From the IMG/VR virus record IMGVR_UViG_651053023_000013, positions 1-13,199 of that record: DNA of 13,199 bases. One strand, 5' to 3'. Source of the DNA: a virus. Taxonomy: Duplodnaviria; Heunggongvirae; Uroviricota; Caudoviricetes. The notes beneath the pieces are model-generated. The model was not told the DNA's origin and did not search any database. It saw only the letters and a list, made by a program, of their open reading frames with translations. Both the position numbers and the translations under genes were made by a program. This document shows, piece after piece, positions 1 to 13,199 of the stretch (positions are counted from its first letter, which is position 1; every line of letters starts with the position of its first letter).

Positions 1-160
1 AGTTTGCTCCTGCCATAACGTGAAGAAGCAATGACCTGGTGGTCCGTGACTTCCCTACGCTGGCATTATCCAGATCAGGTGATACGGGTATTTCTTACTG
101 ATTTTTGTTATCAGTTGATAATTAATAAGTTTTTCAGCAAACAAGAATTAAAAACTTCAA

Positions 161-184: not shown

Positions 185-408
185 ATTTTGTTGAAGCTCT
201 ACGAACAAAGACGAACAATAACAAACAAAAGGGAAATTTGCTGGCAGTTTTGCTTAACCGTTATCATTTTTCGGCTATCCGTTATCAAGCTGGTGGATGA
301 TCACGGATAACCCGTTATGGGAATCCCCATATCGGCATCATGCCCACCAGCATGAAGTATTTTTCGCGGATGTAAAAATTTGACGGGGCGGGCGGTCCCA
401 TAAGCAAT

Positions 409-440
409 GGGGGGGTAGGGATTCCGCTCCCCCCCCTCCC
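409..440. other. G7 ... C8 homopolymer pair able to form a GC-rich stem-loop; T5 run follows about 10 nt downstream
   Basis: ggggggg (409-415) - tagggattccgct - cccccccc (429-436) - tccc, then gaatgcaattttt. Possible plus-strand intrinsic terminator or slippage-prone tract. Confidence 0.35.
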
Positions 441-474
441 GAATGCAATTTTTCTTATATATATACAAAACAGT

Positions 475-627
475 GCGGGTTATGCGGGTTAGCGGGTTAT
501 CTTCGCGTGCTAAGTATTTTTTATTCTTTAATATCAATGCGTTAAAAAATGATATGTTTGAATATTAGCCAAAACGTAACCCGCAAGACATTCAAAATAA
601 CCCGCAAATACCCCCCAAATAACCCAC
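475..627. repeat. Origin-like iteron module A: three abutting GCGGGTTAT copies, AT-rich spacer, three inverted ATAACCC(G/A)C copies at 21-22 bp phasing
   Basis: Direct copies at 475-483, 484-491, 492-500; AT-rich 501-574; inverted copies at 577-584, 597-605, 619-627. Same 9-mer and mirror-image layout as module B at 9640-9771. Confidence 0.6.
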
Positions 628-915
628 AACCCCATCAGGAAAATGGGGCCAGTGATGCCACCGAACGGCTGAATCTGGTAACGTTCTGTTGCCTGGTTGC
701 AGTTTGCGGGTCAGCAATACTGACGCACAAAGTTAGCCGTATGTGGCTGTGCGTCCACCAGCTACGCCGGAATGGGGTATTCCGTTTCAACGGAACAGGT
801 ATGACGAATATGATCGCACCTTCTCCCGAAAACGGGTTTGCCTGTTTCGGGAAAACGGGCACATGAAGCTGCATAGACATTTTCACTATTCAGGATCTGG
901 CGGGGGAGTTTCTCA

Positions 916-6332: not shown

Positions 6333-7502
6333 CTAGCCAGCTTTCATTTCCAGAATTTTGATGGCGTTTGAATCCACCACACCACCGCCCAGATATTTAT
6401 CCGTGTGGACCTTGTAGAATCCGGGTTCAGTAATGTTGTCCGGTCGGGTGCGAATCCCTGTTACATGATCAACGATGAAATAACCACGACTGAAATCGCC
6501 AACCGCTAGCGGTGCTTTTCCTGCGCCGATGTCCGGCATGGACTCCAGGCAGAAAACAGGACGACCAAGCAACATATCCGGCGCACCTTCTTTAAGGCTG
6601 TCGCGCCAGATATAATCGCCATTCTCATTTTTCAGCTTCTGTAGTGTCCCTGCCGTGCCCGAGTTCATCACCCAGACGGCATTTTTGCGGTATTTCGCTT
6701 TCAGCTTGTAGAGAATGTCGATCAGTTCGTCCGCTGTAATGGCGGTTCCACTTGCCGCTACCACTTTTTCAATGGTGCCAAAAGCGCGGGTTTTGTCACT
6801 GGTCGCCGCACGGGTGTAAGCCATGAAGCCTTTCGGCTTGCCGTTACCGTCGCCATTAACAAAATCATCCTCTTCGGTGCTGGCGAACGTGTCGGCAATT
6901 TCGGAGGATAACCAGCCCAAAATATCCACCTCTGAAAAATCCAGGATTTCCTGCGTGGTTTTCGGGTAGGCGTAGATCTGATTCAGCTTGATGGTTACAC
7001 GTTCAATTTTCGGGGTGTTGGTTTCACTACGTGCGCTGCCTTCTGTGCCTCGTCCTACAGTTGCGCCGCCAGTGGAAACCAGTTTCTGAAACTCATTTGA
7101 TTTTGCGGTCTTCACGGTCGCGATCACGCGCATAACACTGTCATCCTGTAGCTGGCGCATGACTTCGCGATCAAGCTCAGGAATTACGGTATATCCGCCA
7201 TCCCTGCCGCTGTCAGTGCTGGTGGACAGTGATCGCACATCTCCGGTTACGATGTAGTTACGCAATTCATCAGATGATAATTTCTGGATGCCCGTTCCTG
7301 GCTTGCTGCGTTCTTCATCAGCCACAGACTCGAGGCGGTAAATTTCTGTGTCGAGGGAATCGGCTTTTGCACGCAGTTCATCAAACTGTTTGCCCTCGTC
7401 ATCGTTCAGGCTGCGGTTTTCACTGTCGGCTTTTTCCAGCAGGGATCGCATCTGGTTTTTCAGGGCGGTTTTTTGCTGGCGGAGTTCGATTAATTTCTTC
7501 AT
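6333..7502 (-). CDS. Major capsid protein (HK97 fold) with N-terminal coiled-coil delta/scaffold domain
   Basis: 389 aa; N-terminal heptad-rich region (MKKLIELRQQKTALKNQMRSLLEKADSENRSL...) followed by an HK97-type capsid body. ATG at 7500-7502. Confidence 0.9.
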   Translation of the reverse strand: MKKLIELRQQKTALKNQMRSLLEKADSENRSLNDDEGKQFDELRAKADSLDTEIYRLESVADEERSKPGTGIQKLSSDELRNYIVTGDVRSLSTSTDSGRDGGYTVIPELDREVMRQLQDDSVMRVIATVKTAKSNEFQKLVSTGGATVGRGTEGSARSETNTPKIERVTIKLNQIYAYPKTTQEILDFSEVDILGWLSSEIADTFASTEEDDFVNGDGNGKPKGFMAYTRAATSDKTRAFGTIEKVVAASGTAITADELIDILYKLKAKYRKNAVWVMNSGTAGTLQKLKNENGDYIWRDSLKEGAPDMLLGRPVFCLESMPDIGAGKAPLAVGDFSRGYFIVDHVTGIRTRPDNITEPGFYKVHTDKYLGGGVVDSNAIKILEMKAG

Positions 7503-7572
7503 GAAGGTTTTCTCGTATTGGTTAAGATTCAGGACGTGAAACCAACACGGAGGGAGCGCCGCCCGACACTCT

Positions 7573-7621
7573 CGGCATCTCGCAGATCAACCCGGCATCG
7601 CGCAGGGGGTCAGGCGGCATT
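7573..7621. promoter_or_regulatory. Three direct CGGCAT(C) repeats at 20-22 bp phasing upstream of the capsid operon (candidate activator sites for a late promoter)
   Basis: cggcatctcgcag (7573-7585), cggcatcgcgcag (7593-7605), cggcatt (7615-7621), in a GC-rich block 70-120 bp upstream of the capsid ATG. No good sigma70 -35/-10 lies between the block and the ATG. Confidence 0.35.
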
Positions 7622-7726
7622 GTGGCGGCTCACGTCTGAGTGCCACACGCCAACATATACATAAAAATCAGTATGTAAACATCAGCCAGAATCACCGAAC
7701 AACCTGGAACAACCACGAACAAATAA

Positions 7727-7757
7727 TTTACAAAACCTGAAAAAAATGGCCTATTAT
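7727..7757 (+). promoter_or_regulatory. Putative sigma70 promoter of the AT-rich accessory gene
   Basis: TTTACA (7727-7732), 19-bp spacer, TATTAT (7752-7757); AGGA ribosome-binding site 6 nt before the ATG at 7789. Spacer is longer than optimal. Confidence 0.3.
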
Positions 7758-7788
7758 TGCTACCTCTGACTACAACAAAGGACGCATC

Positions 7789-8295
7789 ATGAATTTAAGC
7801 GCAATGGTATACCCTGATACTTTCATAATTAATGGCGAATCATTTAAAGGTAAAAGAAACGCAAAAGAAAACAAGGTATTAATTCCATATACAAATGAAC
7901 CGGAAGTAACTATTGGTCAACACATTATCCAGTGTGTCGGTAAAAACGAGATAAATCTAAAAATTATAGATATGAAGTTGCTTCCCAATGGAACCCTCAG
8001 ACAGGGAACCAACCATCCAAATATGTTGACGCTCTATATTGAAAATATCACGGGAAATGAACATATGACGCCACCTAAAAGTAATACATTTAACATTGGT
8101 TCAATTAGTGGTAATCAAGTGCAGATAGGTGAGCATAACCATATGCTGGTAAACATCAGCATCACTGAACTGGTTGAAAAAGTCTCTAAATCGGGGGATG
8201 TACAAGCCAAATCAGTATTAAAGCAGTTACTGGAAAACAGTACCGTTGCCAGCATTGTTGGGGCTGGCGCAAGTGCCTTAATAGGCTTACTGTAA
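7789..8295 (+). CDS. Unrecognised 168-aa protein with C-terminal hydrophobic glycine-zipper segment; AT-rich accessory gene (moron)
   Basis: Only credible plus-strand gene inside the island. Roughly one-third GC by eye against about half in neighbouring genes. Own promoter, ribosome-binding site and terminator. C-terminal ...NSTVASIVGAGASALIGLL is a likely membrane anchor. Internal NIGSISGNQVQIGEHNH is not assignable from memory. Confidence 0.7.
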   Translation: MNLSAMVYPDTFIINGESFKGKRNAKENKVLIPYTNEPEVTIGQHIIQCVGKNEINLKIIDMKLLPNGTLRQGTNHPNMLTLYIENITGNEHMTPPKSNTFNIGSISGNQVQIGEHNHMLVNISITELVEKVSKSGDVQAKSVLKQLLENSTVASIVGAGASALIGLL

Positions 8296-8303
8296 AAAAA
8301 TGA

Positions 8304-8320
8304 CCTGGAGAAAATCCAGG
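8304..8320. terminator. Bidirectional intrinsic terminator between convergent genes
   Basis: Stem CCTGGA (8304-8309), loop gaaaa, stem TCCAGG (8315-8320). On the minus strand it is followed by T7 (complement of A7 at 8294-8300); on the plus strand by an interrupted T-rich run. Confidence 0.5.
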
Positions 8321-8331
8321 CCTTTATCGCT

Positions 8332-8580
8332 TTATTGTTTCACTGGATCCCGCATTCTGCGTCTTATTTTCCACAGATATTCGATCATCGCTTCCACCTG
8401 CTCACGATTGGTTGCGAAAATTTCCCCGGTCAGTGAGCTGCGCAGAAAATCATGATGATCCACAACAAACAACGCATCGGAAGAAAGCAGACGGCGATAT
8501 TTTTTTGCTGTCGTGGTTTCCAGATCATCAAAACCATGAAACTTTTTATGTTGCTGGACTTCTTCAAATGTCACTGGCAT
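8332..8580 (-). CDS. Hypothetical protein (82 aa), translationally coupled to the ProQ/FinO-like gene
   Basis: ATG at 8578-8580 overlaps the stop of the upstream ORF by 10 nt; no recognisable motif. Confidence 0.45.
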   Translation of the reverse strand: MPVTFEEVQQHKKFHGFDDLETTTAKKYRRLLSSDALFVVDHHDFLRSSLTGEIFATNREQVEAMIEYLWKIRRRMRDPVKQ

Positions 8581-9113
8581 GTATCCCCCTTTGCTGCCCG
8601 GCGCTGGCGCTTGTGCTTCTCATTCAGCGCCATCAGCCGCGTTTCTGCCTCCTGCTGTTCCTGTGGTGTCACTTCCCCACATGGCTGGCCTTTCAGGTCG
8701 TATCGTACCCCACCAGCAACCAGGGCGCGGTAATAGCGCGGAGACTGCGCATAAGATGCCAGCGTCGCACGTAATGCCCCCGGCCCGAATGCCAGCCCCC
8801 TGACGGCGAGATCCTGCATCAGGTCGTCGAATATCCCCACCTTAAGCGGCTTCGGTGCTTCCCTGTTGAATAAGTCAGGCCACATCTCAGTGAGGCGGTT
8901 AACGCGCCTGCGGTTTTTGCGCTGGCGTTTGGTCATATGCCGCCACGGTGTCACCCCTGTGGGCTGCCCTTTGCGGCTCTGCTGTGCGTTCTGATTGCCG
9001 GGTATCACTTTATGCGCCGATGTGGTTTTATCCCGCTCTTGCGCCGCCTGCGTCGTTTTCTGCGGCGTGCCGTAAATGCCTTTCGGTTTTCGGTTAATGG
9101 TCAGCTTTGTCAT
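8571..9113 (-). CDS. ProQ/FinO-domain RNA-binding protein with an N-terminal basic, Q-rich extension of about 75 aa
   Basis: PLKVGIFDDLMQDL...LRATLASYAQSPRYYRALVAGGVRYDLKGQPCGEVTPQEQQEAETRL aligns by eye to the N-terminal FinO domain of E. coli ProQ (PLKIGIFQDL...LRSALRLYTSSWRYLYGV...[24 protein letters not shown]). ATG at 9111-9113 with a GGGGAAGG ribosome-binding site. Confidence 0.75.
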   Translation of the reverse strand: MTKLTINRKPKGIYGTPQKTTQAAQERDKTTSAHKVIPGNQNAQQSRKGQPTGVTPWRHMTKRQRKNRRRVNRLTEMWPDLFNREAPKPLKVGIFDDLMQDLAVRGLAFGPGALRATLASYAQSPRYYRALVAGGVRYDLKGQPCGEVTPQEQQEAETRLMALNEKHKRQRRAAKGDTCQ

Positions 9114-9575: not shown

Positions 9576-9639
9576 GCTGTCTGCTCTCCGGTTTTAACGT
9601 TGATGGTTACGCTTGTTTACACCCTTACGGTGAAATTCT

Positions 9640-9771
9640 GCGGGTTATAATCGCACTTTTGCGGGTTATAACTGCCGTTTTGCGGGTTACGTGCGGGTTA
9701 TTGATTTCCTTTTTATTCATACAGTTAATGCACTTATATACATGATAACCCGCATAACCCGCATAACCCGC
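9640..9771. repeat. Origin-like iteron module B: four GCGGGTTA(T/C) copies at 21/21/11 bp phasing, AT-rich spacer, three abutting ATAACCCGC copies; immediately downstream of the primase-helicase gene
   Basis: Direct copies at 9640-9648, 9661-9669, 9682-9690, 9693-9701; AT-rich 9702-9744; inverted copies at 9745-9753, 9754-9762, 9763-9771. The primase stop is at 9795-9797. Confidence 0.7.
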
Positions 9772-9794
9772 AACTTTTCACCTCACACAGGGGG

Positions 9795-11918
9795 TTAATC
9801 TTCTGCCTCAGGCTGGAACATCAGCACGTAAAAAACATGCTGCTTCCCCCCAATTTTGCCGAGCGCCTTTTTCTTGTAACGGCGATCGTTACCCGCTTCC
9901 AGCATTCCGGCAGCACTCAACGCGCGGGCAAAGTGAGACGGATTAAATCCCTGTGCTATCTCACCCTCAAATACATGCGGGAACGTGTAAAAACGGAACT
10001 CGTCATCTTCGTTTCTGATACTCCCCTTTCTGTATCCGGCAAGCTCTTTAATCGGTAAATCACGCTCGTCGGTGTTGGGCCACGGAAGGTATCTGCTGAA
10101 TCCGAACGACGCTAAAAAAGCCTCTGCCTGTTCAACCATCTGTTTAAACTCCCTGTTACCCGTGCCGAACTCCTTCACCCAGGCATTAAAATTATGCTGA
10201 ATGGCATCGCGGCACGCCTGAACATCCCAACCAGTAATATGGACGGAAAGCACCAGCGCCGACTCCAGCATGGCGAATCGTTCCCCCACACGGTGAACCT
10301 GTTCGCCGTAACTCTCCGGTATCAGGTTGCGCCACCGTTCACGGCATGCCCTTACCGTATCCTTTGCCTCCTGCTGGTGGTCTGCCAGCCATTTAACCCA
10401 TTCACGCCCCGCCGCCCCGTGATTTTCTGTCCAGGCATCCTTTAACGCGTCTGCGTGTGCCTTTCCGGTGCTGTATTCGTGAAACTGCGTGGCTTTTTCC
10501 ATTGGCACGTTAAGCAGGCGGACAAGCTGCCCCGCCTTGACTTTTATCCCCTCCGTTTTGAGGAATGTCTCAACGTCCATTTCTCCGGTGCTGATTGCCA
10601 CCGTGCGCCAGTGTTTGATCTCCCTGTTGCCGCCGTCCTTCGCCCCCTGTAATTTCCCCGAACCGTTAAACAGCGTATAAGCCGACGTGGACACTTCCCG
10701 CGCGTTTCCGGCCTGACCTATTTCATCCAGGGGTAATAGCCCGTCATTGTGCGCCTCTGCCTCGTTGGCGATGCCTAACGCTGTACCGTACCAGGTCAGC
10801 CGTTGCGCGTCCGGCTCTCCCCATAAACTGGATGCGATGTTCTGTGTGGTGGTTTTCCCTGCCGATGACTGTTCGAAAAGATGTACCCCGAAGCCGTCAG
10901 CACCCACCAGCCCGATTAATGGTGCGGATAACGATACCGCCACACCCAGCATCATGGACGGATTACCACCAGCCAGCCGCGCAACGATATCGCGCCAGCC
11001 CTCCGCCGTTCCTGCCACGGAATAGCCATTAACAGCAGCCGTTTTTCCGGTAAACAGGACTGGCTTTTCGCAATCACCAATGACCGAACCGTCCGGCATG
11101 ATGTACGCGCCAAAATGCCAGCCCGTTGTTGTGCTTAACTGCCATTCCTCATGGCTTCCGCTTAACTGCATCCAGTCAGCCAGGATAGCCCTGTATTTAC
11201 CGTTGGTTGTTACGTTCAGTCCGTGGTCTTTCAGCAACCGCCAGCCGTCACGGTCGCCAATGCCACCGCACGGAACCGCCATTGTGATGACTTCATGGTT
11301 TGCTAATTTTTTCCAGCGCATCACGCGGTAATGCTCTTTACCGATTGTCCCCGTTCCCAGTAGTTCAAGCGGGGAACATAACCACGTCTCAGGCCGGATA
11401 ATTTCGCCTGACTGCTTATCCACTTTTGGCGTTACCCAGAAAACACCATCGGCGCGACTTTCAACGCGGGGCTTTAATTCATCATCGCCCTGGATTTCTG
11501 TGATTTTTTTCTTTAAGGGCAACACCAGACTTTCCCCGCGCTCGTATTCGTCTTTGAGGCGAGGCAACTGGTCGGATAAATCCGCCGGGCTGATGTCAGT
11601 TATCCCCGCGTATTCGTATACGGTCTTCACGCCAGCCACAGCCAGCAACGTGACGATCTGTGTAAGGCTACGTTCAGTGATGTGCCCTGCGCGGTAAACA
11701 CGCACACACTGACGGCTATCATCAATAATTTGATAACCGGTAATATCTTTCAGGTGTTCATCTGACAGAACGACAGGCGGCACATTGTCGGCGGCAATAT
11801 GCTTACCTGCCCATTCCTGCCACTCTTTCGCATGGCTCCACGCATCACTACCCGCAAAGATGATAACCTCCGTCATTTTGTCGGCTGGCTGGTGCTTTAA
11901 GTTTGGTGCGCGCTTCAT
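9795..11918 (-). CDS. Replication initiator: Toprim-like primase N-terminus plus DUF927/SF3-type helicase-like domain
   Basis: 707 aa; P-loop FEQSSAGKTTTQNIASSLWG and Walker B-like LLPLDEIGQAG; N-terminal region resembles a Toprim primase fold. ATG at 11916-11918 overlaps the upstream stop (ATGA). The iteron module follows directly. Confidence 0.8.
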   Translation of the reverse strand: MKRAPNLKHQPADKMTEVIIFAGSDAWSHAKEWQEWAGKHIAADNVPPVVLSDEHLKDITGYQIIDDSRQCVRVYRAGHITERSLTQIVTLLAVAGVKTVYEYAGITDISPADLSDQLPRLKDEYERGESLVLPLKKKITEIQGDDELKPRVESRADGVFWVTPKVDKQSGEIIRPETWLCSPLELLGTGTIGKEHYRVMRWKKLANHEVITMAVPCGGIGDRDGWRLLKDHGLNVTTNGKYRAILADWMQLSGSHEEWQLSTTTGWHFGAYIMPDGSVIGDCEKPVLFTGKTAAVNGYSVAGTAEGWRDIVARLAGGNPSMMLGVAVSLSAPLIGLVGADGFGVHLFEQSSAGKTTTQNIASSLWGEPDAQRLTWYGTALGIANEAEAHNDGLLPLDEIGQAGNAREVSTSAYTLFNGSGKLQGAKDGGNREIKHWRTVAISTGEMDVETFLKTEGIKVKAGQLVRLLNVPMEKATQFHEYSTGKAHADALKDAWTENHGAAGREWVKWLADHQQEAKDTVRACRERWRNLIPESYGEQVHRVGERFAMLESALVLSVHITGWDVQACRDAIQHNFNAWVKEFGTGNREFKQMVEQAEAFLASFGFSRYLPWPNTDERDLPIKELAGYRKGSIRNEDDEFRFYTFPHVFEGEIAQGFNPSHFARALSAAGMLEAGNDRRYKKKALGKIGGKQHVFYVLMFQPEAED

Positions 11919-12234: not shown

Positions 12235-12453
12235 TTACTCCAGAGGCAGCTTTTTAGCGGCGAGCTCAATATCAGATGTCAGAGAAACCTGTGTATTTGC
12301 CAGGTCTAACAACAAAGAAATAAGAATTTCTTCTCTGCTATCGGATTTATCGGTGCTAAGGCTGTTCATCCACATATTGACGACTTCCCTGATTTTTTTC
12401 GCAGAGTGCAGGGCTTCAAATGCCAGGTCTTCAATATCATGTTTATTTCGCAT
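12235..12453 (-). CDS. Hypothetical small protein (about 72 aa)
   Basis: Preferred ATG at 12451-12453 (MRNKHDIEDL...) with a GGGGG ribosome-binding site, overlapping the upstream stop by 11 nt. The tracked ORF start at 12483 is TTG. Confidence 0.4.
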   Translation of the reverse strand: MRNKHDIEDLAFEALHSAKKIREVVNMWMNSLSTDKSDSREEILISLLLDLANTQVSLTSDIELAAKKLPLE

Positions 12454-12805
12454 AATCGCCCCCGCCATTTTCACAATCAGCAATCAGGATGGCTTTTGCC
12501 TCATTCAGCGCCATATCAGCACTAAATTGCATAACAGCCAGTGAGTGAGGAACGAAAGCCCCGGCATATTCTGTTTCGCTGGTGGCCTCAATGGTAATCA
12601 CACGCGGTTGTGCCGTGCTCAGGGCGATAAAACGCCAGATGTATTTATTCAGGTTGTGCAAGTCCCGCCCTTGCGGGTGTGTGGTATGATTTAACATAGC
12701 TACCTCGATAATCTTGCTATCGTTGGTGGTTAGAAGCCCGGTTAGTGTTAGCGCACTGCCGGGTTTCGTCGTTTGTATTTCAATAAAACCATTGGTGTGT
12801 TTCAT
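12443..12805 (-). CDS. Hypothetical protein, first gene of the replication-side operon (120 aa from ATG 12805; alternative start 12697 gives 84 aa)
   Basis: ATG at 12803-12805 sits inside an operator-like inverted repeat and has no Shine-Dalgarno. An internal ATG at 12695-12697 has a GAGGT ribosome-binding site. The tracked extension to 13186 is Ser/Thr-rich and antisense to the plus-strand regulator. Confidence 0.45.
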   Translation of the reverse strand: MKHTNGFIEIQTTKPGSALTLTGLLTTNDSKIIEVAMLNHTTHPQGRDLHNLNKYIWRFIALSTAQPRVITIEATSETEYAGAFVPHSLAVMQFSADMALNEAKAILIADCENGGGDYAK

Positions 12806-12875
12806 GTTATTTTGGAGTGAAACACACGTCAAGCCTTTTTTGTATTTCTTTTTTGTGTATACTGAAACACACCAA
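12792..12875. promoter_or_regulatory. Divergent control region with three copies of TGAAACACAC (one inverted, two direct) and a -10-like TATACT
   Basis: GTGTGTTTCA (12795-12804, overlapping the minus-strand ATG), TGAAACACAC (12818-12827) and TGAAACACACCAA (12863-12875). The first and third share 13 bp in opposite orientation. TATACT at 12858-12863. Confidence 0.5.
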
Positions 12876-12893
12876 ATTTGAGGAGTTTCAGTT

Positions 12894-13199
12894 ATGGCGA
12901 CTACCAACAAAAACGCTAAATCACAATTGACCACCGTCAGAGTCCCCCACGATGTTATGGAGGGCATGGAATCCGTAAAACTGGACGGCGAAAGCAACGC
13001 CGGATTCATAGTAACCGCCATGCGCGGTGAGATCGCCCGCCGCCAGGCAGAAGGAAGCGGAGAAAATCCCCTGGTTTCTTCGCTCGATGCACTGGCGCAG
13101 GTGGAAAAAATTGGAGTCAAGGCTGCCGAGGAGATCGGGCAACTCGTCGCCGTCGCGCGTGAAGAACTCCAGCGCCGCAAGGCCAAAGAATCAGAATAA
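12894..13199 (+). CDS. Putative ribbon-helix-helix-type DNA-binding regulator (101 aa), divergent from the replication operon
   Basis: Strong ribosome-binding site GAGGAG (12880-12885), 8 nt before the ATG. N-terminus LTTVRVPHDVMEGMESVKL...NAGFIVTAMRGEIARRQ fits a beta-strand/helix/helix pattern; helical C-terminal extension. Fold assignment is by pattern only. Confidence 0.45.
   Translation: MATTNKNAKSQLTTVRVPHDVMEGMESVKLDGESNAGFIVTAMRGEIARRQAEGSGENPLVSSLDALAQVEKIGVKAAEEIGQLVAVAREELQRRKAKESE

What the first reader, a model, noticed from the sequence alone, without database searches (positions are those of the whole stretch)
7573..7621. Phased CGGCAT direct repeats upstream of the capsid operon
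Three copies at 20-22 bp spacing lie on one helix face, 70-120 bp upstream of the capsid ATG, and no good sigma70 -35/-10 is present. This suggests an activator-dependent late promoter, possibly responding to a helper-phage or island activator. A minus-strand terminator at 8304-8320 also insulates the capsid operon from upstream transcription.
Basis: inference. Interest (0 to 1): 0.45.

Follow-up and report, generated by a model that had tools for sequence, protein, structure and literature searches.

The report
Repeats inside a structured capsid-operon leader
The three CGGCAT copies are real, but they lie downstream of the likely promoter, inside a conserved folded 5' leader RNA in front of the capsid gene of a capsid-forming phage satellite, so they are not activator sites; the leader itself appears to be an undescribed RNA motif.

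Summary
The window is a capsid-forming PICI (EcCIEDL933 family) next to thiM. CGGCAT occurs at 7573, 7593 and 7615, as reported. The triple alone is not statistically notable, and it is absent from 84 of 94 related leaders.

It is conserved across genera, so the repeats fall at about +25 to +72 of the transcript.

That transcript starts with a conserved structured leader, found upstream of a capsid gene in 138 of 138 readable loci:
- **P1:** a nearly invariant hairpin, 7646-7622.
- **P2:** a variable three-way junction. Its basal stem has compensatory changes in 9 of 10 pairs, plus G-U pairs.
- **Capsid-proximal end:** a hairpin next to the ribosome-binding site, and a long-range pairing to the P1 loop.

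The hexamers are by-products of this fold. Two come from the 3' arms of a duplicated small hairpin, and one from the 5' arm of the P2 stem. No Rfam family matches.

Better candidates for activator sites are three TTGTTC repeats at 10-bp phase (7697-7722) beside a conserved TTTTGTAAAT block. The terminator at 8302-8322 is confirmed and conserved. The leader's function is inferred, probably an expression switch, and is untested.

The parts
7573..7620 (+). The three CGGCAT copies (7573-78, 7593-98, 7615-20). On the capsid (minus) strand they read AUGCCG, at about +25 to +72 of the predicted transcript.
   Evidence: Found only in the window-type P2 variant: 10 of 94 distinct leaders have 2-3 copies and 84 have none.
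7572..7586 (-). Small hairpin unit 2, UCUGC-GAGAU-GCCGA. It is homologous to the family's P2b hairpin CUGC-GAGAU-GCAG, with a U.C mismatch. It contains CGGCAT copy 1.
   Evidence: The covariance-model alignment places it on the P2b consensus. P2b is 94% paired with 2 compensatory pairs, and the window type is the mismatch class at columns 71:81.
7591..7608 (-). Small hairpin unit 1, CCC-CUGC-GCGAU-GCCG-GG, in the P2a position. It contains CGGCAT copy 2. Together with unit 2 it forms the 13-nt direct repeat.
   Evidence: The same 18-nt unit recurs in an otherwise different leader (L245).
7558..7618 (-). P2. Basal stem GCCGCCUGAC (7618-7609) pairs with GUCGGGCGGC (7567-7558) and encloses the two small hairpins. 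CGGCAT copy 3 overlaps the 5' arm.
   Evidence: Inverted repeat I1. In the alignment, 9 of 10 basal pairs have compensatory changes: 177 double-change cells against 47 in shuffles and 6-59 in slid controls. G-U/U-G pairs number 51 against 11 A.C/C.A, which favours the capsid-sense strand.
7622..7646 (-). P1, the nearly invariant 5'-terminal hairpin GUGGC-A-CUCA-GACG-UGAG-CC-GCCAC.
   Evidence: 99.8% paired, with 3 pairs showing compensatory change. The motif is in at least 119 IMG/VR contigs. A capsid gene lies downstream in 138 of 138 readable loci.
7652..7679 (-). Predicted sigma70-type promoter: -35 TTTACA (7679-7674), 16-nt spacer, -10 TATGTT (7657-7652). The predicted start is at about 7646-7644, the first bases of P1.
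   Evidence: The -10 (TATATCTT/TATATGTT) and its spacing to P1 are conserved in 111 distinct upstream regions across genera. The start site is inferred, not mapped.
7697..7735 (-). Conserved upstream module: TTTTGTAAAT block plus three TTGTTC repeats at exactly 10-bp phase (GAACAA on + at 7697, 7707, 7717), about -52 to -90. Candidate activator, UP-like or curved-DNA module.
   Evidence: A 50-bp piece is 90-100% identical in about 400 E. coli genomes, including O157:H7, where it also lies upstream of the capsid gene. The binding factor is unknown.
7533..7539 (-). UCACGUC, complementary to the P1 loop region GACGUGA (7636-7630). This is a long-range pairing that is mutually exclusive with the upper stem of P1.
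   Evidence: 97% paired across 94 leaders, with one compensatory pair. The EDL933-type leader carries a different complementary pair, CCAGGACGC/GCGUCCUGG. Duplex energy is -11 to -20 kcal/mol.
7503..7549 (-). Capsid-proximal part of the leader: hairpin GUGUUGGUU/AACCAAUACG (7549-7540 with 7523-7514), GGUUU/AAACC complementarity, and a weak Shine-Dalgarno (GAGAAA) before the capsid ATG 7502-7500.
   Evidence: Inverted repeat I2. In the common type the minimum-energy fold buries ACGGAAACC in hairpin P3. P3 shows no covariation.
8302..8322 (-). Intrinsic terminator ending the upstream (replication/accessory) operon.
   Evidence: It is conserved directly upstream of the TTTTGTAAAT block in relatives without the cargo ORF.
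7789..8295 (+). Divergent AT-rich cargo ORF (168 aa) inserted between the terminator and the promoter module.
   Evidence: Homology with many relatives breaks at about 7746. phrog_5789, unknown function; no Pfam or PADLOC hit.
6333..7502 (-). HK97-fold major capsid gene, the first gene of the packaging operon (protease, portal, connectors, HNH, TerS and TerL follow).
   Evidence: Pfam results.

Best explanation
The window carries a capsid-forming phage-inducible chromosomal island (cf-PICI). Its packaging operon appears to be transcribed from its own sigma70-type promoter (-35 at 7679-7674, -10 at 7657-7652). That promoter sits behind a terminator (8302-8322) and a conserved upstream module (7697-7735).

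The CGGCAT copies are not promoter elements. They lie in the transcribed 5' leader (about 7646-7503), which folds into a conserved RNA:
- an invariant 5' hairpin, P1;
- a three-way junction, P2, variable in sequence but conserved in structure;
- a C-rich linker;
- a hairpin next to the ribosome-binding site.

In this lineage the interior of P2 holds two copies of one small hairpin, and AUGCCG is the loop end plus the 3' arm of each copy. The third hexamer is part of the 5' arm of the P2 basal stem. The apparent phased repeat is therefore a by-product of RNA-structure duplication.

Inferred mechanism: the P1 loop region can pair with the sequence at the 5' side of the hairpin next to the ribosome-binding site. 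P1, this long-range helix and the RBS hairpin then form mutually exclusive alternatives that set capsid translation. In the EDL933-type relative, where the proximal hairpin is followed by U8, they would also set transcription termination.

Shown: location, conservation, covariation, association with the capsid gene. Inferred: the start site, the switch and its trigger.
For: **Identity of the element.** Pfam finds capsid, S78 protease, portal, HNH, TerL, DUF927 primase and SSB. Gene order matches the EDL933-like island and the cf-PICI literature (bioRxiv 10.1101/2022.09.08.507074).

**Promoter.** Searches find it. The -10 and its distance to P1 are conserved in 19 species and in 111 distinct upstream sequences.

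**Leader structure.**
- RNAalifold predicts P1 and the P2 base, with compensatory changes in 12 of 19 predicted pairs.
- Pair counts: 94% of cells paired against 34-45% in slid controls; 177 double-change cells against 47 in shuffles.
- P2a and P2b hairpins are supported.
- G-U pairs outnumber A.C (51 against 11), which points to the sense strand.
- Covariance model R1 scores the window at 105.6 bits, E = 3e-27.

**Specificity.** 138 of 138 loci with the P1 motif and a readable downstream ORF have a capsid homologue there. No Rfam family matches the window or three relatives.

**Non-conservation of the hexamers.** None in the 80 loci from other species, apart from one stray copy. 84 of 94 leaders have none. 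Near relatives change single copies, in two cases through G-U-compatible changes.

**Switch.**
- The long-range helix is 97% paired, with a compensatory change shared with P1.
- The EDL933-type leader has the same logic in different sequence, plus a terminator-like hairpin and U8 before the AUG; its fold has z = -5.15.
- The minimum-energy fold of the common type buries the Shine-Dalgarno.
Against: - No transcription start site or transcript data were available, so the promoter is only a 9 of 12 consensus match.
- The window sequence alone folds no better than shuffles (z = -1.56 sense, -1.45 antisense). The case rests on comparative data.
- P1 is nearly invariant and palindromic, so a DNA operator at +1 would give similar covariation.
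- The long-range helix has one compensatory position in four sequences of probably one clade (L003, L019, L027, L245). EDL933-type leaders are too alike to test.
- P3 shows no covariation.
- The alternative fold is 6-10 kcal/mol above the minimum-energy fold when modelled without a pseudoknot.
- No trigger for a switch is identified.
- Read-through from the island's upstream operon cannot be excluded.
Confidence: 0.7

Rival explanations
1. The three CGGCAT copies are binding sites on one helix face for an activator (helper-phage or island encoded) that recruits RNA polymerase to a weak promoter between the repeats and the capsid ATG.
For: The copies exist with 20 and 22 bp spacing. Two of them extend to a 13-nt repeat.
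Against: - No -35/-10 match lies between 7573 and 7503.
- The only conserved promoter is upstream of the repeats.
- 84 of 94 related leaders lack the hexamer.
- The flanking sequence covaries as RNA stems with G-U pairs.
- The triple is not statistically unusual.
- cf-PICIs make capsids without a helper phage (bioRxiv 10.1101/2025.02.11.637232).
Confidence: 0.04
2. There is no internal promoter. The capsid operon is expressed by read-through from the island's upstream (alpA-driven) operon, past the 8302-8322 terminator and antisense through the cargo ORF. The conserved leader then acts as an internal processing, stability or translation element of a long transcript.
For: - Gram-negative PICIs are described as unidirectionally transcribed, and AlpA alone induces the cycle (PMC6092414).
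- An alpA-overexpressing strain is used to produce EcCIEDL933 particles (bioRxiv 10.1101/2025.02.11.637232).
- 'Noncontiguous operons' with a divergent immune gene are known in phages (PMC11364771).
- In type-A relatives a hairpin plus T-run replaces the -35.
Against: - A strong intrinsic terminator is conserved immediately upstream of the module.
- The -10, and in type B the -35, are conserved at fixed distance from P1.
- P1 begins exactly where a start site is predicted.
- PICI AlpA proteins (62-92 aa) lack the large N-terminal part that residue numbering implies for the Pseudomonas AlpA antiterminator (PMC9371919).
Confidence: 0.15
3. The leader is transcribed and structured but is not a switch. 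It could act as a processive antitermination RNA (put-like) that lets polymerase traverse the 6-kb operon, or as a 5' stabiliser that protects the mRNA from RNase E. The long-range complementarity would then be incidental or purely architectural.
For: - Two adjacent stem-loops lie right at the 5' end, separated by 1-3 nt.
- The invariant P1 suggests recognition by a conserved host machine.
- 5'-terminal hairpins are known mRNA stabilisers (established knowledge, for example ompA).
Against: - No sequence or model similarity to HK022 putL or putR.
- No strong intrinsic terminators were found inside the operon.
- This model does not explain the conserved UCACGUC element or the EDL933-type terminator-like hairpin before the AUG.
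Confidence: 0.2
4. DNA-level operator. P1 (an imperfect palindrome at +1 to +25), and possibly the CGGCAT units, are binding sites for a repressor that blocks initiation or elongation of capsid transcription until induction.
For: P1 is palindromic and almost invariant, loop included. Concerted changes in the two half-sites would mimic stem covariation.
Against: - The P2 sequence is hypervariable while its pairing is kept, with many G-U pairs. That pattern fits RNA, not an operator.
- The CGGCAT units are lineage-specific.
- No island DNA-binding protein tracks the element: clusters of AlpA and of the 82-aa ORF family mix promoter types.
Confidence: 0.06
5. Leader-peptide attenuation. The first and third AUGCCG are in frame and open a 32-codon upstream ORF (7620 to about 7522) whose translation controls the downstream structure.
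For: Read directly from the sequence: AUG at 7620 and an in-frame AUG at 7578, with a stop just before the ribosome-binding region.
Against: There is no Shine-Dalgarno before 7620. The AUGs lie inside stems. 84 of 94 related leaders have no such AUG or ORF.
Confidence: 0.02

Closest known systems
Packaging-operon upstream region of cf-PICI EcCIEDL933 (E. coli O157:H7)
   Same: Same kind of element and same gene order. The 50-bp upstream module TTTTGTAAATTATTTGTTCGTGGTTGTTCCA(C/G)GTTGTTC is shared at 92% identity. It has a similar -35/-10 geometry, a P1-like hairpin with a GACG loop, a P2 stem and a long-range complement of P1.
   Different: The leader sequence is too diverged for model R1 to detect. 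The EDL933 type has an extra hairpin and a terminator-like hairpin plus U8 directly before the AUG. It has no CGGCAT triple in the leader. No publication found describes this region.
Lambda-type late promoter PR' with 6S leader and tR' (Q antitermination)
   Same: A promoter in front of structural genes is followed by a short structured leader. In the EDL933 type a terminator lies about 165 nt downstream. The phages that supply tails to cf-PICIs are lambdoid.
   Different: No Q gene is in the island. No Q-binding element or -10-like pause element was tested or seen. The window type has no terminator in the leader. cf-PICIs express capsids without a helper (bioRxiv 10.1101/2025.02.11.637232).
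HK022 put RNAs (cis-acting antitermination RNA)
   Same: Two adjacent stem-loops in the nascent transcript just downstream of a promoter.
   Different: No sequence similarity. Model R1 finds nothing in the HK022 genome. Sizes and loops differ. Function was not tested.
P2/P4 late promoters activated by Ogr/Delta
   Different: The defining TGT-N12-ACA dyad near -55 is absent from 7503-7790. A recognisable -35 is present.
Transcription or translation attenuators and riboswitch expression platforms
   Same: Mutually exclusive helices: the P1 upper stem, the P1-loop to downstream pairing, and the RBS or terminator hairpin.
   Different: No ligand pocket, leader peptide or trans factor is identified. 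Covariation for the switching helices is thin.
P4 immunity RNA system (CI RNA pairing with seqA/seqC in the leader)
   Same: A satellite leader in which intramolecular RNA-RNA pairing is proposed to decide expression of downstream genes.
   Different: It sits in a different place in the element (the Bro/eta zone according to PMC10111431). No sequence relation was tested or seen.

Membership tests
Capsid-forming PICI (cf-PICI, EcCIEDL933 family) | Island encoding its own HK97-type capsid, protease, portal, connectors, HNH, TerS and TerL, together with PICI-type primase/replicase genes, and no tail or lysis genes | tested here: met
   Pfam results. The gene order is collinear with the O157:H7 island. 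int and alpA lie outside the window but are present in near-identical relatives.
   The repeats lie downstream of the only conserved -35/-10. The -35 is TTTACA (5 of 6).
   84 of 94 related leaders have no ATGCCG. None in the loci from other species, apart from one stray copy.
P2/P4 Ogr/Delta-type late promoter | TGT-N12-ACA dyad centred near -55 | tested here: not met
   No match in 7503-7790.
Any Rfam 15 RNA family | Covariance-model match at E of 1 or below | tested here: not met
   No hit at 7500-7650 in the window, nor in the leaders of L007, L001 or L032.
HK022 put antitermination RNA | Homology to putL or putR stem-loops | tested here: not met
   The sequences were read. R1 finds no match in HK022.
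HK022 put antitermination RNA | Makes RNA polymerase terminator-resistant in cis | not testable with these tools
   Needs in vitro or in vivo read-through assays.
Structured cis-regulatory 5' leader RNA (new motif) | Helices supported by compensatory changes beyond controls | tested here: met
   P1 and P2. P2a and P2b.
Structured cis-regulatory 5' leader RNA (new motif) | Fixed position relative to one gene family | tested here: met
   138 of 138 loci with a readable downstream ORF have a capsid homologue there.
Structured cis-regulatory 5' leader RNA (new motif) | The region is transcribed, with its 5' end at P1 | not testable with these tools
   Only a consensus promoter match is available. 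No transcript data.
Attenuator or switch | Mutually exclusive helices, each supported by covariation | tested here: inconclusive
   The long-range helix has 1 compensatory pair in 4 sequences, plus an analogous pairing in the EDL933 type. P3 has none.
Replication-origin iterons | Multiple copies of a repeat next to the replicase gene | tested here: not met
   The true iterons (TGCGGGTTA and ATAACCCGCA) are at 9636-9772, next to the primase gene. CGGCAT is unrelated and lies 2 kb away.
Pseudomonas AlpA- or Q-type loading site | Binding element between -35 and -10, plus a -10-like pause element at +1 to +6 | not tested
   PICI AlpA proteins are only 62-92 aa. The Pseudomonas element GGGACG (PMC9371919) was not searched for.

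The most novel reading that the evidence does not exclude
The 145-nt leader (P1, P2, long-range helix, RBS hairpin) is a previously undescribed class of cis-regulatory RNA that gates capsid-operon expression in capsid-forming phage satellites. It would act as a pseudoknot or attenuator switch: the invariant 5' hairpin is the sensor for a conserved host or island factor, and the output is translation in the window type or termination in the EDL933 type.
Probability: 0.3. Interest if true: 0.65.

Novelty: new member of a known kind. Interest (0 to 1): 0.45.

Why it matters
How cf-PICIs control their capsid and packaging operon is not described in any paper I could find. The question is topical because these satellites make DNA-filled, tail-less capsids even without a helper phage. 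Locating the likely promoter, a conserved upstream module and a covarying leader RNA gives concrete, mutable targets for testing that control. The leader is also a compact sequence signature for finding cf-PICI capsid operons: it preceded a capsid gene in 138 of 138 readable loci. For the finding as submitted, the result is corrective. The CGGCAT repeat is a lineage-specific by-product of RNA-structure duplication, not a regulatory DNA site.

Tried and rejected
- **Rfam.** Searches of the window and of three relatives found nothing at the leader.
- **put-like RNA.** HK022 putL and putR were read, and the HK022 genome was searched with model R1. No relation.
- **Trans factor for the phased TTGTTC/TGTTTAC repeats.** AlpA alleles and the conserved 82-aa ORF family were clustered at 70% identity and compared with repeat type. 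The largest clusters mix both types, so neither is implicated. Comparing all proteins of the EDL933-like island with those of a near-identical relative of the window (L202) showed that only TerL, TerS, HNH, portal and Pri-Rep are highly similar. No obvious regulator emerged.
- **More P1 variants to test the long-range helix.**
  - One viral scan returned unrelated coding sequence.
  - A second viral scan returned one true member, L245.
  - The single metagenome scan returned 87 chance matches; none of the 80 tested with R1 scored.
- **EDL933-type leaders.** Thirty-four loci are nearly identical, so no covariation test was possible.
- **Origin iterons.** Rejected: the real iterons are at 9636-9772.
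- **cos site.** Rejected for this region: a match to the phiP27 cos site lies at 362-399.
- **Sigma54 promoter.** P1 contains TGGCAC, but reading the sequence shows no GC element at the required spacing, and the stem covaries.
- **IHF site in the TTTTGTAAAT block.** Two mismatches in the core consensus by eye. Not pursued.
- **P2/P4 dyad.** Absent.
- **Leader peptide.** Not conserved.
- **Helper-embedded configuration.** Two relatives, L202 and L002, sit inside a prophage terL gene. The window copy abuts thiM, so read-through from helper late transcription does not apply here.
- **Single-sequence folding.** It does not discriminate between strands, nor from shuffles.

Full report
**What the window is.** On the minus strand it encodes a DUF4222 protein, a DUF927 primase/replicase (9795-11918), SSB, a ProQ/FinO-domain protein and an 82-aa ORF. 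After a divergent AT-rich ORF (7789-8295, + strand) it encodes an HK97-type major capsid (6333-7502), an S78 protease, a portal, HNH, TerS and TerL. The order is collinear with the island of E. coli O157:H7 that the literature calls EcCIEDL933, the prototype capsid-forming PICI (bioRxiv 10.1101/2022.09.08.507074). The left end of the window abuts thiM.

**The observation.**
- CGGCAT occurs at 7573, 7593 and 7615 on the + strand, which is 71-118 nt upstream of the capsid ATG at 7502.
- The hexamer is not enriched in the window: 15 copies against 11.1 expected.
- Some hexamer repeated three times within 50 bp arises 0.65 times per shuffled window.
- Two of the copies belong to a real 13-nt direct repeat, 92% identical.
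- The statement that no sigma70 promoter is present is wrong. TTTACA-N16-TATGTT lies at 7679-7652 on the capsid strand. It is one of only four such matches in 13.2 kb, where shuffles give 13. It is upstream of the repeats.

**Comparative evidence.**
- I collected 80 capsid homologues from other species and at least 119 viral contigs carrying the motif GGCACTCAGACGTGAGCCGCCA.
- None of the other-species loci has the CGGCAT repeats, apart from one stray copy.
- The alignment of upstream regions shows a fixed architecture:
  - a TTTTGTAAAT block followed by three 6-mers at exactly 10-bp phase (TTGTTC x3 here, at 7697-7722 as GAACAA on the + strand; TTGTAC/GTTTAC/GATTAC in another type);
  - then a -35 of the form (G/A)TTTAC, or in the other type a hairpin plus T-run;
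  - then a conserved -10, TATATCTT or TATATGTT;
  - then, 5 nt later, an almost invariant 25-nt hairpin, P1.
- In every locus where the downstream ORF could be read (138 of 138), that ORF is a capsid homologue.

**The leader is a structured RNA.**
- I aligned 94 distinct leaders, from P1 to the ATG. RNAalifold predicts P1 and the basal stem of a second element, P2.
- Pair counting gives 94% of cells paired, against 34-45% when partners are slid. There are 177 cells with changes on both sides, against 47 in shuffles. Nine of ten P2 basal pairs, and three P1 pairs, have compensatory changes.
- G-U pairs (51) far outnumber A.C (11), which indicates selection on the capsid-sense strand.
- In the common type, the interior of P2 is a three-way junction with two small hairpins, P2a and P2b. 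Both are supported.
- Covariance model R1, built from the alignment, scores the window at 105.6 bits (E = 3e-27). It also finds a 16.5-kb record deposited as a phage whose gene content is that of a cf-PICI. It does not find HK022 or the EDL933-type, Xenorhabdus-type or Pasteurellaceae-type leaders.
- Rfam 15 has no matching family.

**Where the CGGCAT copies sit in this structure.**
- In capsid sense the hexamer reads AUGCCG.
- The model alignment places UCUGC-GAGAU-GCCGA (7586-7572) on the conserved P2b hairpin CUGC-GAGAU-GCAG. CCUGC-GCGAU-GCCGG (7606-7592) occupies the P2a position.
- This lineage therefore carries two copies of one small hairpin. AUGCCG is the end of the loop plus the 3' arm of each.
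- The A-to-C difference from the family consensus creates the U.C mismatch class seen at columns 71:81.
- The third hexamer is part of the 5' arm of the P2 basal stem: AAUGCCGCCUGAC pairs with GUCGGGCGGC.
- Only the 10 window-type leaders have the hexamer; 84 of 94 have none.
- Close variants alter single copies:
  - L128 loses the first copy, with a compensated stem;
  - L109 (AUGUCG) and L171 keep pairing through G-U;
  - L100 (AUUCCG) breaks a pair.
- The same 18-nt unit CCCCUGCGCGAUGCCGGG recurs in an otherwise different leader, L245.

**Possible mechanism of the leader.**
- The P1 loop region (A)GACGUGA is complementary to the conserved UCACGUC(U), at 7533-7539 in the window. This helix is 97% paired. 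It changes together with P1 in four sequences, where column 15 goes U to G, column 10 goes A to C and column 132 goes A to C.
- The helix excludes the upper stem of P1. It also overlaps the 5' arm of the hairpin next to the ribosome-binding site, GGUUUC...GAAACC, which buries the weak Shine-Dalgarno in the minimum-energy fold of the common type.
- The EDL933-type leader uses different sequence but the same logic. Its P1 is CCAG-GACG-CUGG. CCAGGACGC is complementary to GCGUCCUGG. That segment is the 5' arm of a hairpin, GUCCUGG...CCAGGAC, followed by U8 and the AUG, so it is terminator-like and covers the AGGA Shine-Dalgarno. The fold has z = -5.15.
- I therefore favour an attenuator or switch that sets capsid translation, and termination in the EDL933 type.
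- This is inference. P3 does not covary. The alternative fold is 6-10 kcal/mol above the minimum-energy fold without pseudoknot modelling. No trigger is known.

**What controls the promoter.**
- The 50-bp module with TTTTGTAAAT and TTGTTC x3 is 90-100% identical in about 400 E. coli genomes, and 92% identical to the EDL933-like island. Yet capsid identity between those two island types is only 63% and AlpA identity 58%. The module is therefore under strong constraint.
- I could not assign a binding protein. Clusters of AlpA and of the 82-aa ORF family both mix repeat types.
- Published work shows that AlpA is required for induction (PMC6092414), that an alpA-overexpressing strain is used to produce EcCIEDL933 particles, and that cf-PICIs produce packaged tail-less capsids without a helper (bioRxiv 10.1101/2025.02.11.637232). 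This argues against an obligatory helper-phage activator. An island or host factor, or read-through from the alpA operon, remains possible.
- In relatives without the cargo ORF, the terminator abuts the module directly. That supports a separate transcription unit and shows that the 168-aa ORF was inserted between the terminator and the promoter.

**Verdict.**
- The repeats exist but are not regulatory DNA sites. They are a lineage-specific consequence of a duplicated hairpin inside a conserved and apparently undescribed 5' leader RNA of cf-PICI capsid operons.
A different set of phased repeats is the better activator-site candidate.
- The terminator observation holds.
- Firmly supported: the location of the repeats relative to a conserved promoter-like element, RNA-type covariation, and the strict association with capsid genes.
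- Inferred: the start site, the switch mechanism and its trigger.

Noticed in passing
window 7697-7735 (minus strand): A TTTTGTAAAT block plus three TTGTTC repeats at exact 10-bp phase lie just upstream of the -35. The module is conserved across Enterobacterales and Pasteurellaceae cf-PICIs. The three repeats change in concert between island types (TTGTTC type and T(G/T)TTAC type). The binding factor is unknown.
   Followed up: partly
window 9636-9772: Replication-origin-like iterons lie just downstream of the DUF927 primase gene: TGCGGGTTA(T) x4 at 21/21/11-bp spacing, and ATAACCCGCA x3 at 9-bp spacing.
   Followed up: partly
window 362-629: A second, mirror-image set of the same iterons (TGCGGGTTA x3 at 474-499; AAATAACCCGCAA-like x4 at 574-629) lies next to a 38-bp match (97%) to the annotated cos site of phage phiP27 at 362-399. 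This suggests that cos and a second Rep-binding region sit at the island end downstream of terL.
   Followed up: partly
window 35-126 (minus strand): A partial TPP-riboswitch match (31.7 bits, below the gathering score of 54.3) lies directly upstream of thiM. The 3' half is the canonical THI-box, and the 5' half (P2/P3) is replaced by island-end sequence. The island therefore seems to be integrated inside the thiM riboswitch aptamer. Other PICI-like elements occupy the same site in other E. coli.
   Followed up: partly
window 7789-8295 (+): A 168-aa AT-rich ORF (34% GC) is inserted between the terminator and the capsid promoter module, divergent to the island genes. It matches phrog_5789 (unknown function) and has no Pfam or PADLOC hit. 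The literature expects immune systems in this variable region.
   Followed up: partly
window 8571-9113 (minus strand): A ProQ/FinO-domain protein (an RNA chaperone fold) sits where close relatives (E. coli 042, EDL933) carry a PerC-family regulator. An island-encoded RNA-binding protein next to a structured leader is suggestive, but it is present in only some islands.
   Followed up: no
window 8332-8580 (minus strand): An 82-aa ORF (phrog_1957, unknown function) is 43% identical to the 74-aa ORF at the same position in the EDL933-like island. It is found upstream of the capsid promoter in 93 of about 140 loci.
   Followed up: partly
L001 6785-6950 (minus strand; EDL933-like island): The EDL933-type leader ends in a hairpin GUCCUGG...CCAGGAC followed by U8 and the capsid AUG. 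This is terminator-like and also covers the Shine-Dalgarno. The 5' hairpin contains an identical CCAGGAC that can compete for the same partner.
   Followed up: partly
L032, L063, L065 (Xenorhabdus/Photorhabdus loci), about 150 nt upstream of the capsid ATG: A third, unrelated leader type precedes homologous capsid genes. It too has 5'-to-3' long-range complementarity (ACAUGUAGG ... CCUACAUG) ending next to the ribosome-binding site.
   Followed up: no
L202 1828-2571 and 17469-18347; L002 1-572: Near-identical islands in E. coli OkiPb01706 and strain 042 are inserted in a prophage terminase large-subunit gene, co-directional with it. This is the helper-embedded PICI configuration of PMC10111431. 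The window copy instead sits at thiM.
   Followed up: partly
window 12698-12770 (+): A weak SymR-antitoxin-like RNA match (33.6 bits, gathering score 61) lies antisense to the 247-aa ORF (12443-13186), whose C-terminal part matches phage transcriptional-repressor PHROGs.
   Followed up: no
type-A relatives, e.g. L008 and L150, -60 to -15 relative to P1: In many relatives the -35 position is occupied by a GC-rich hairpin followed by a T-run (for example CCCCTG...CGGGGGTTTTCTTTATATTTTT). This looks like an intrinsic terminator placed between the phased repeats and the -10.
   Followed up: no
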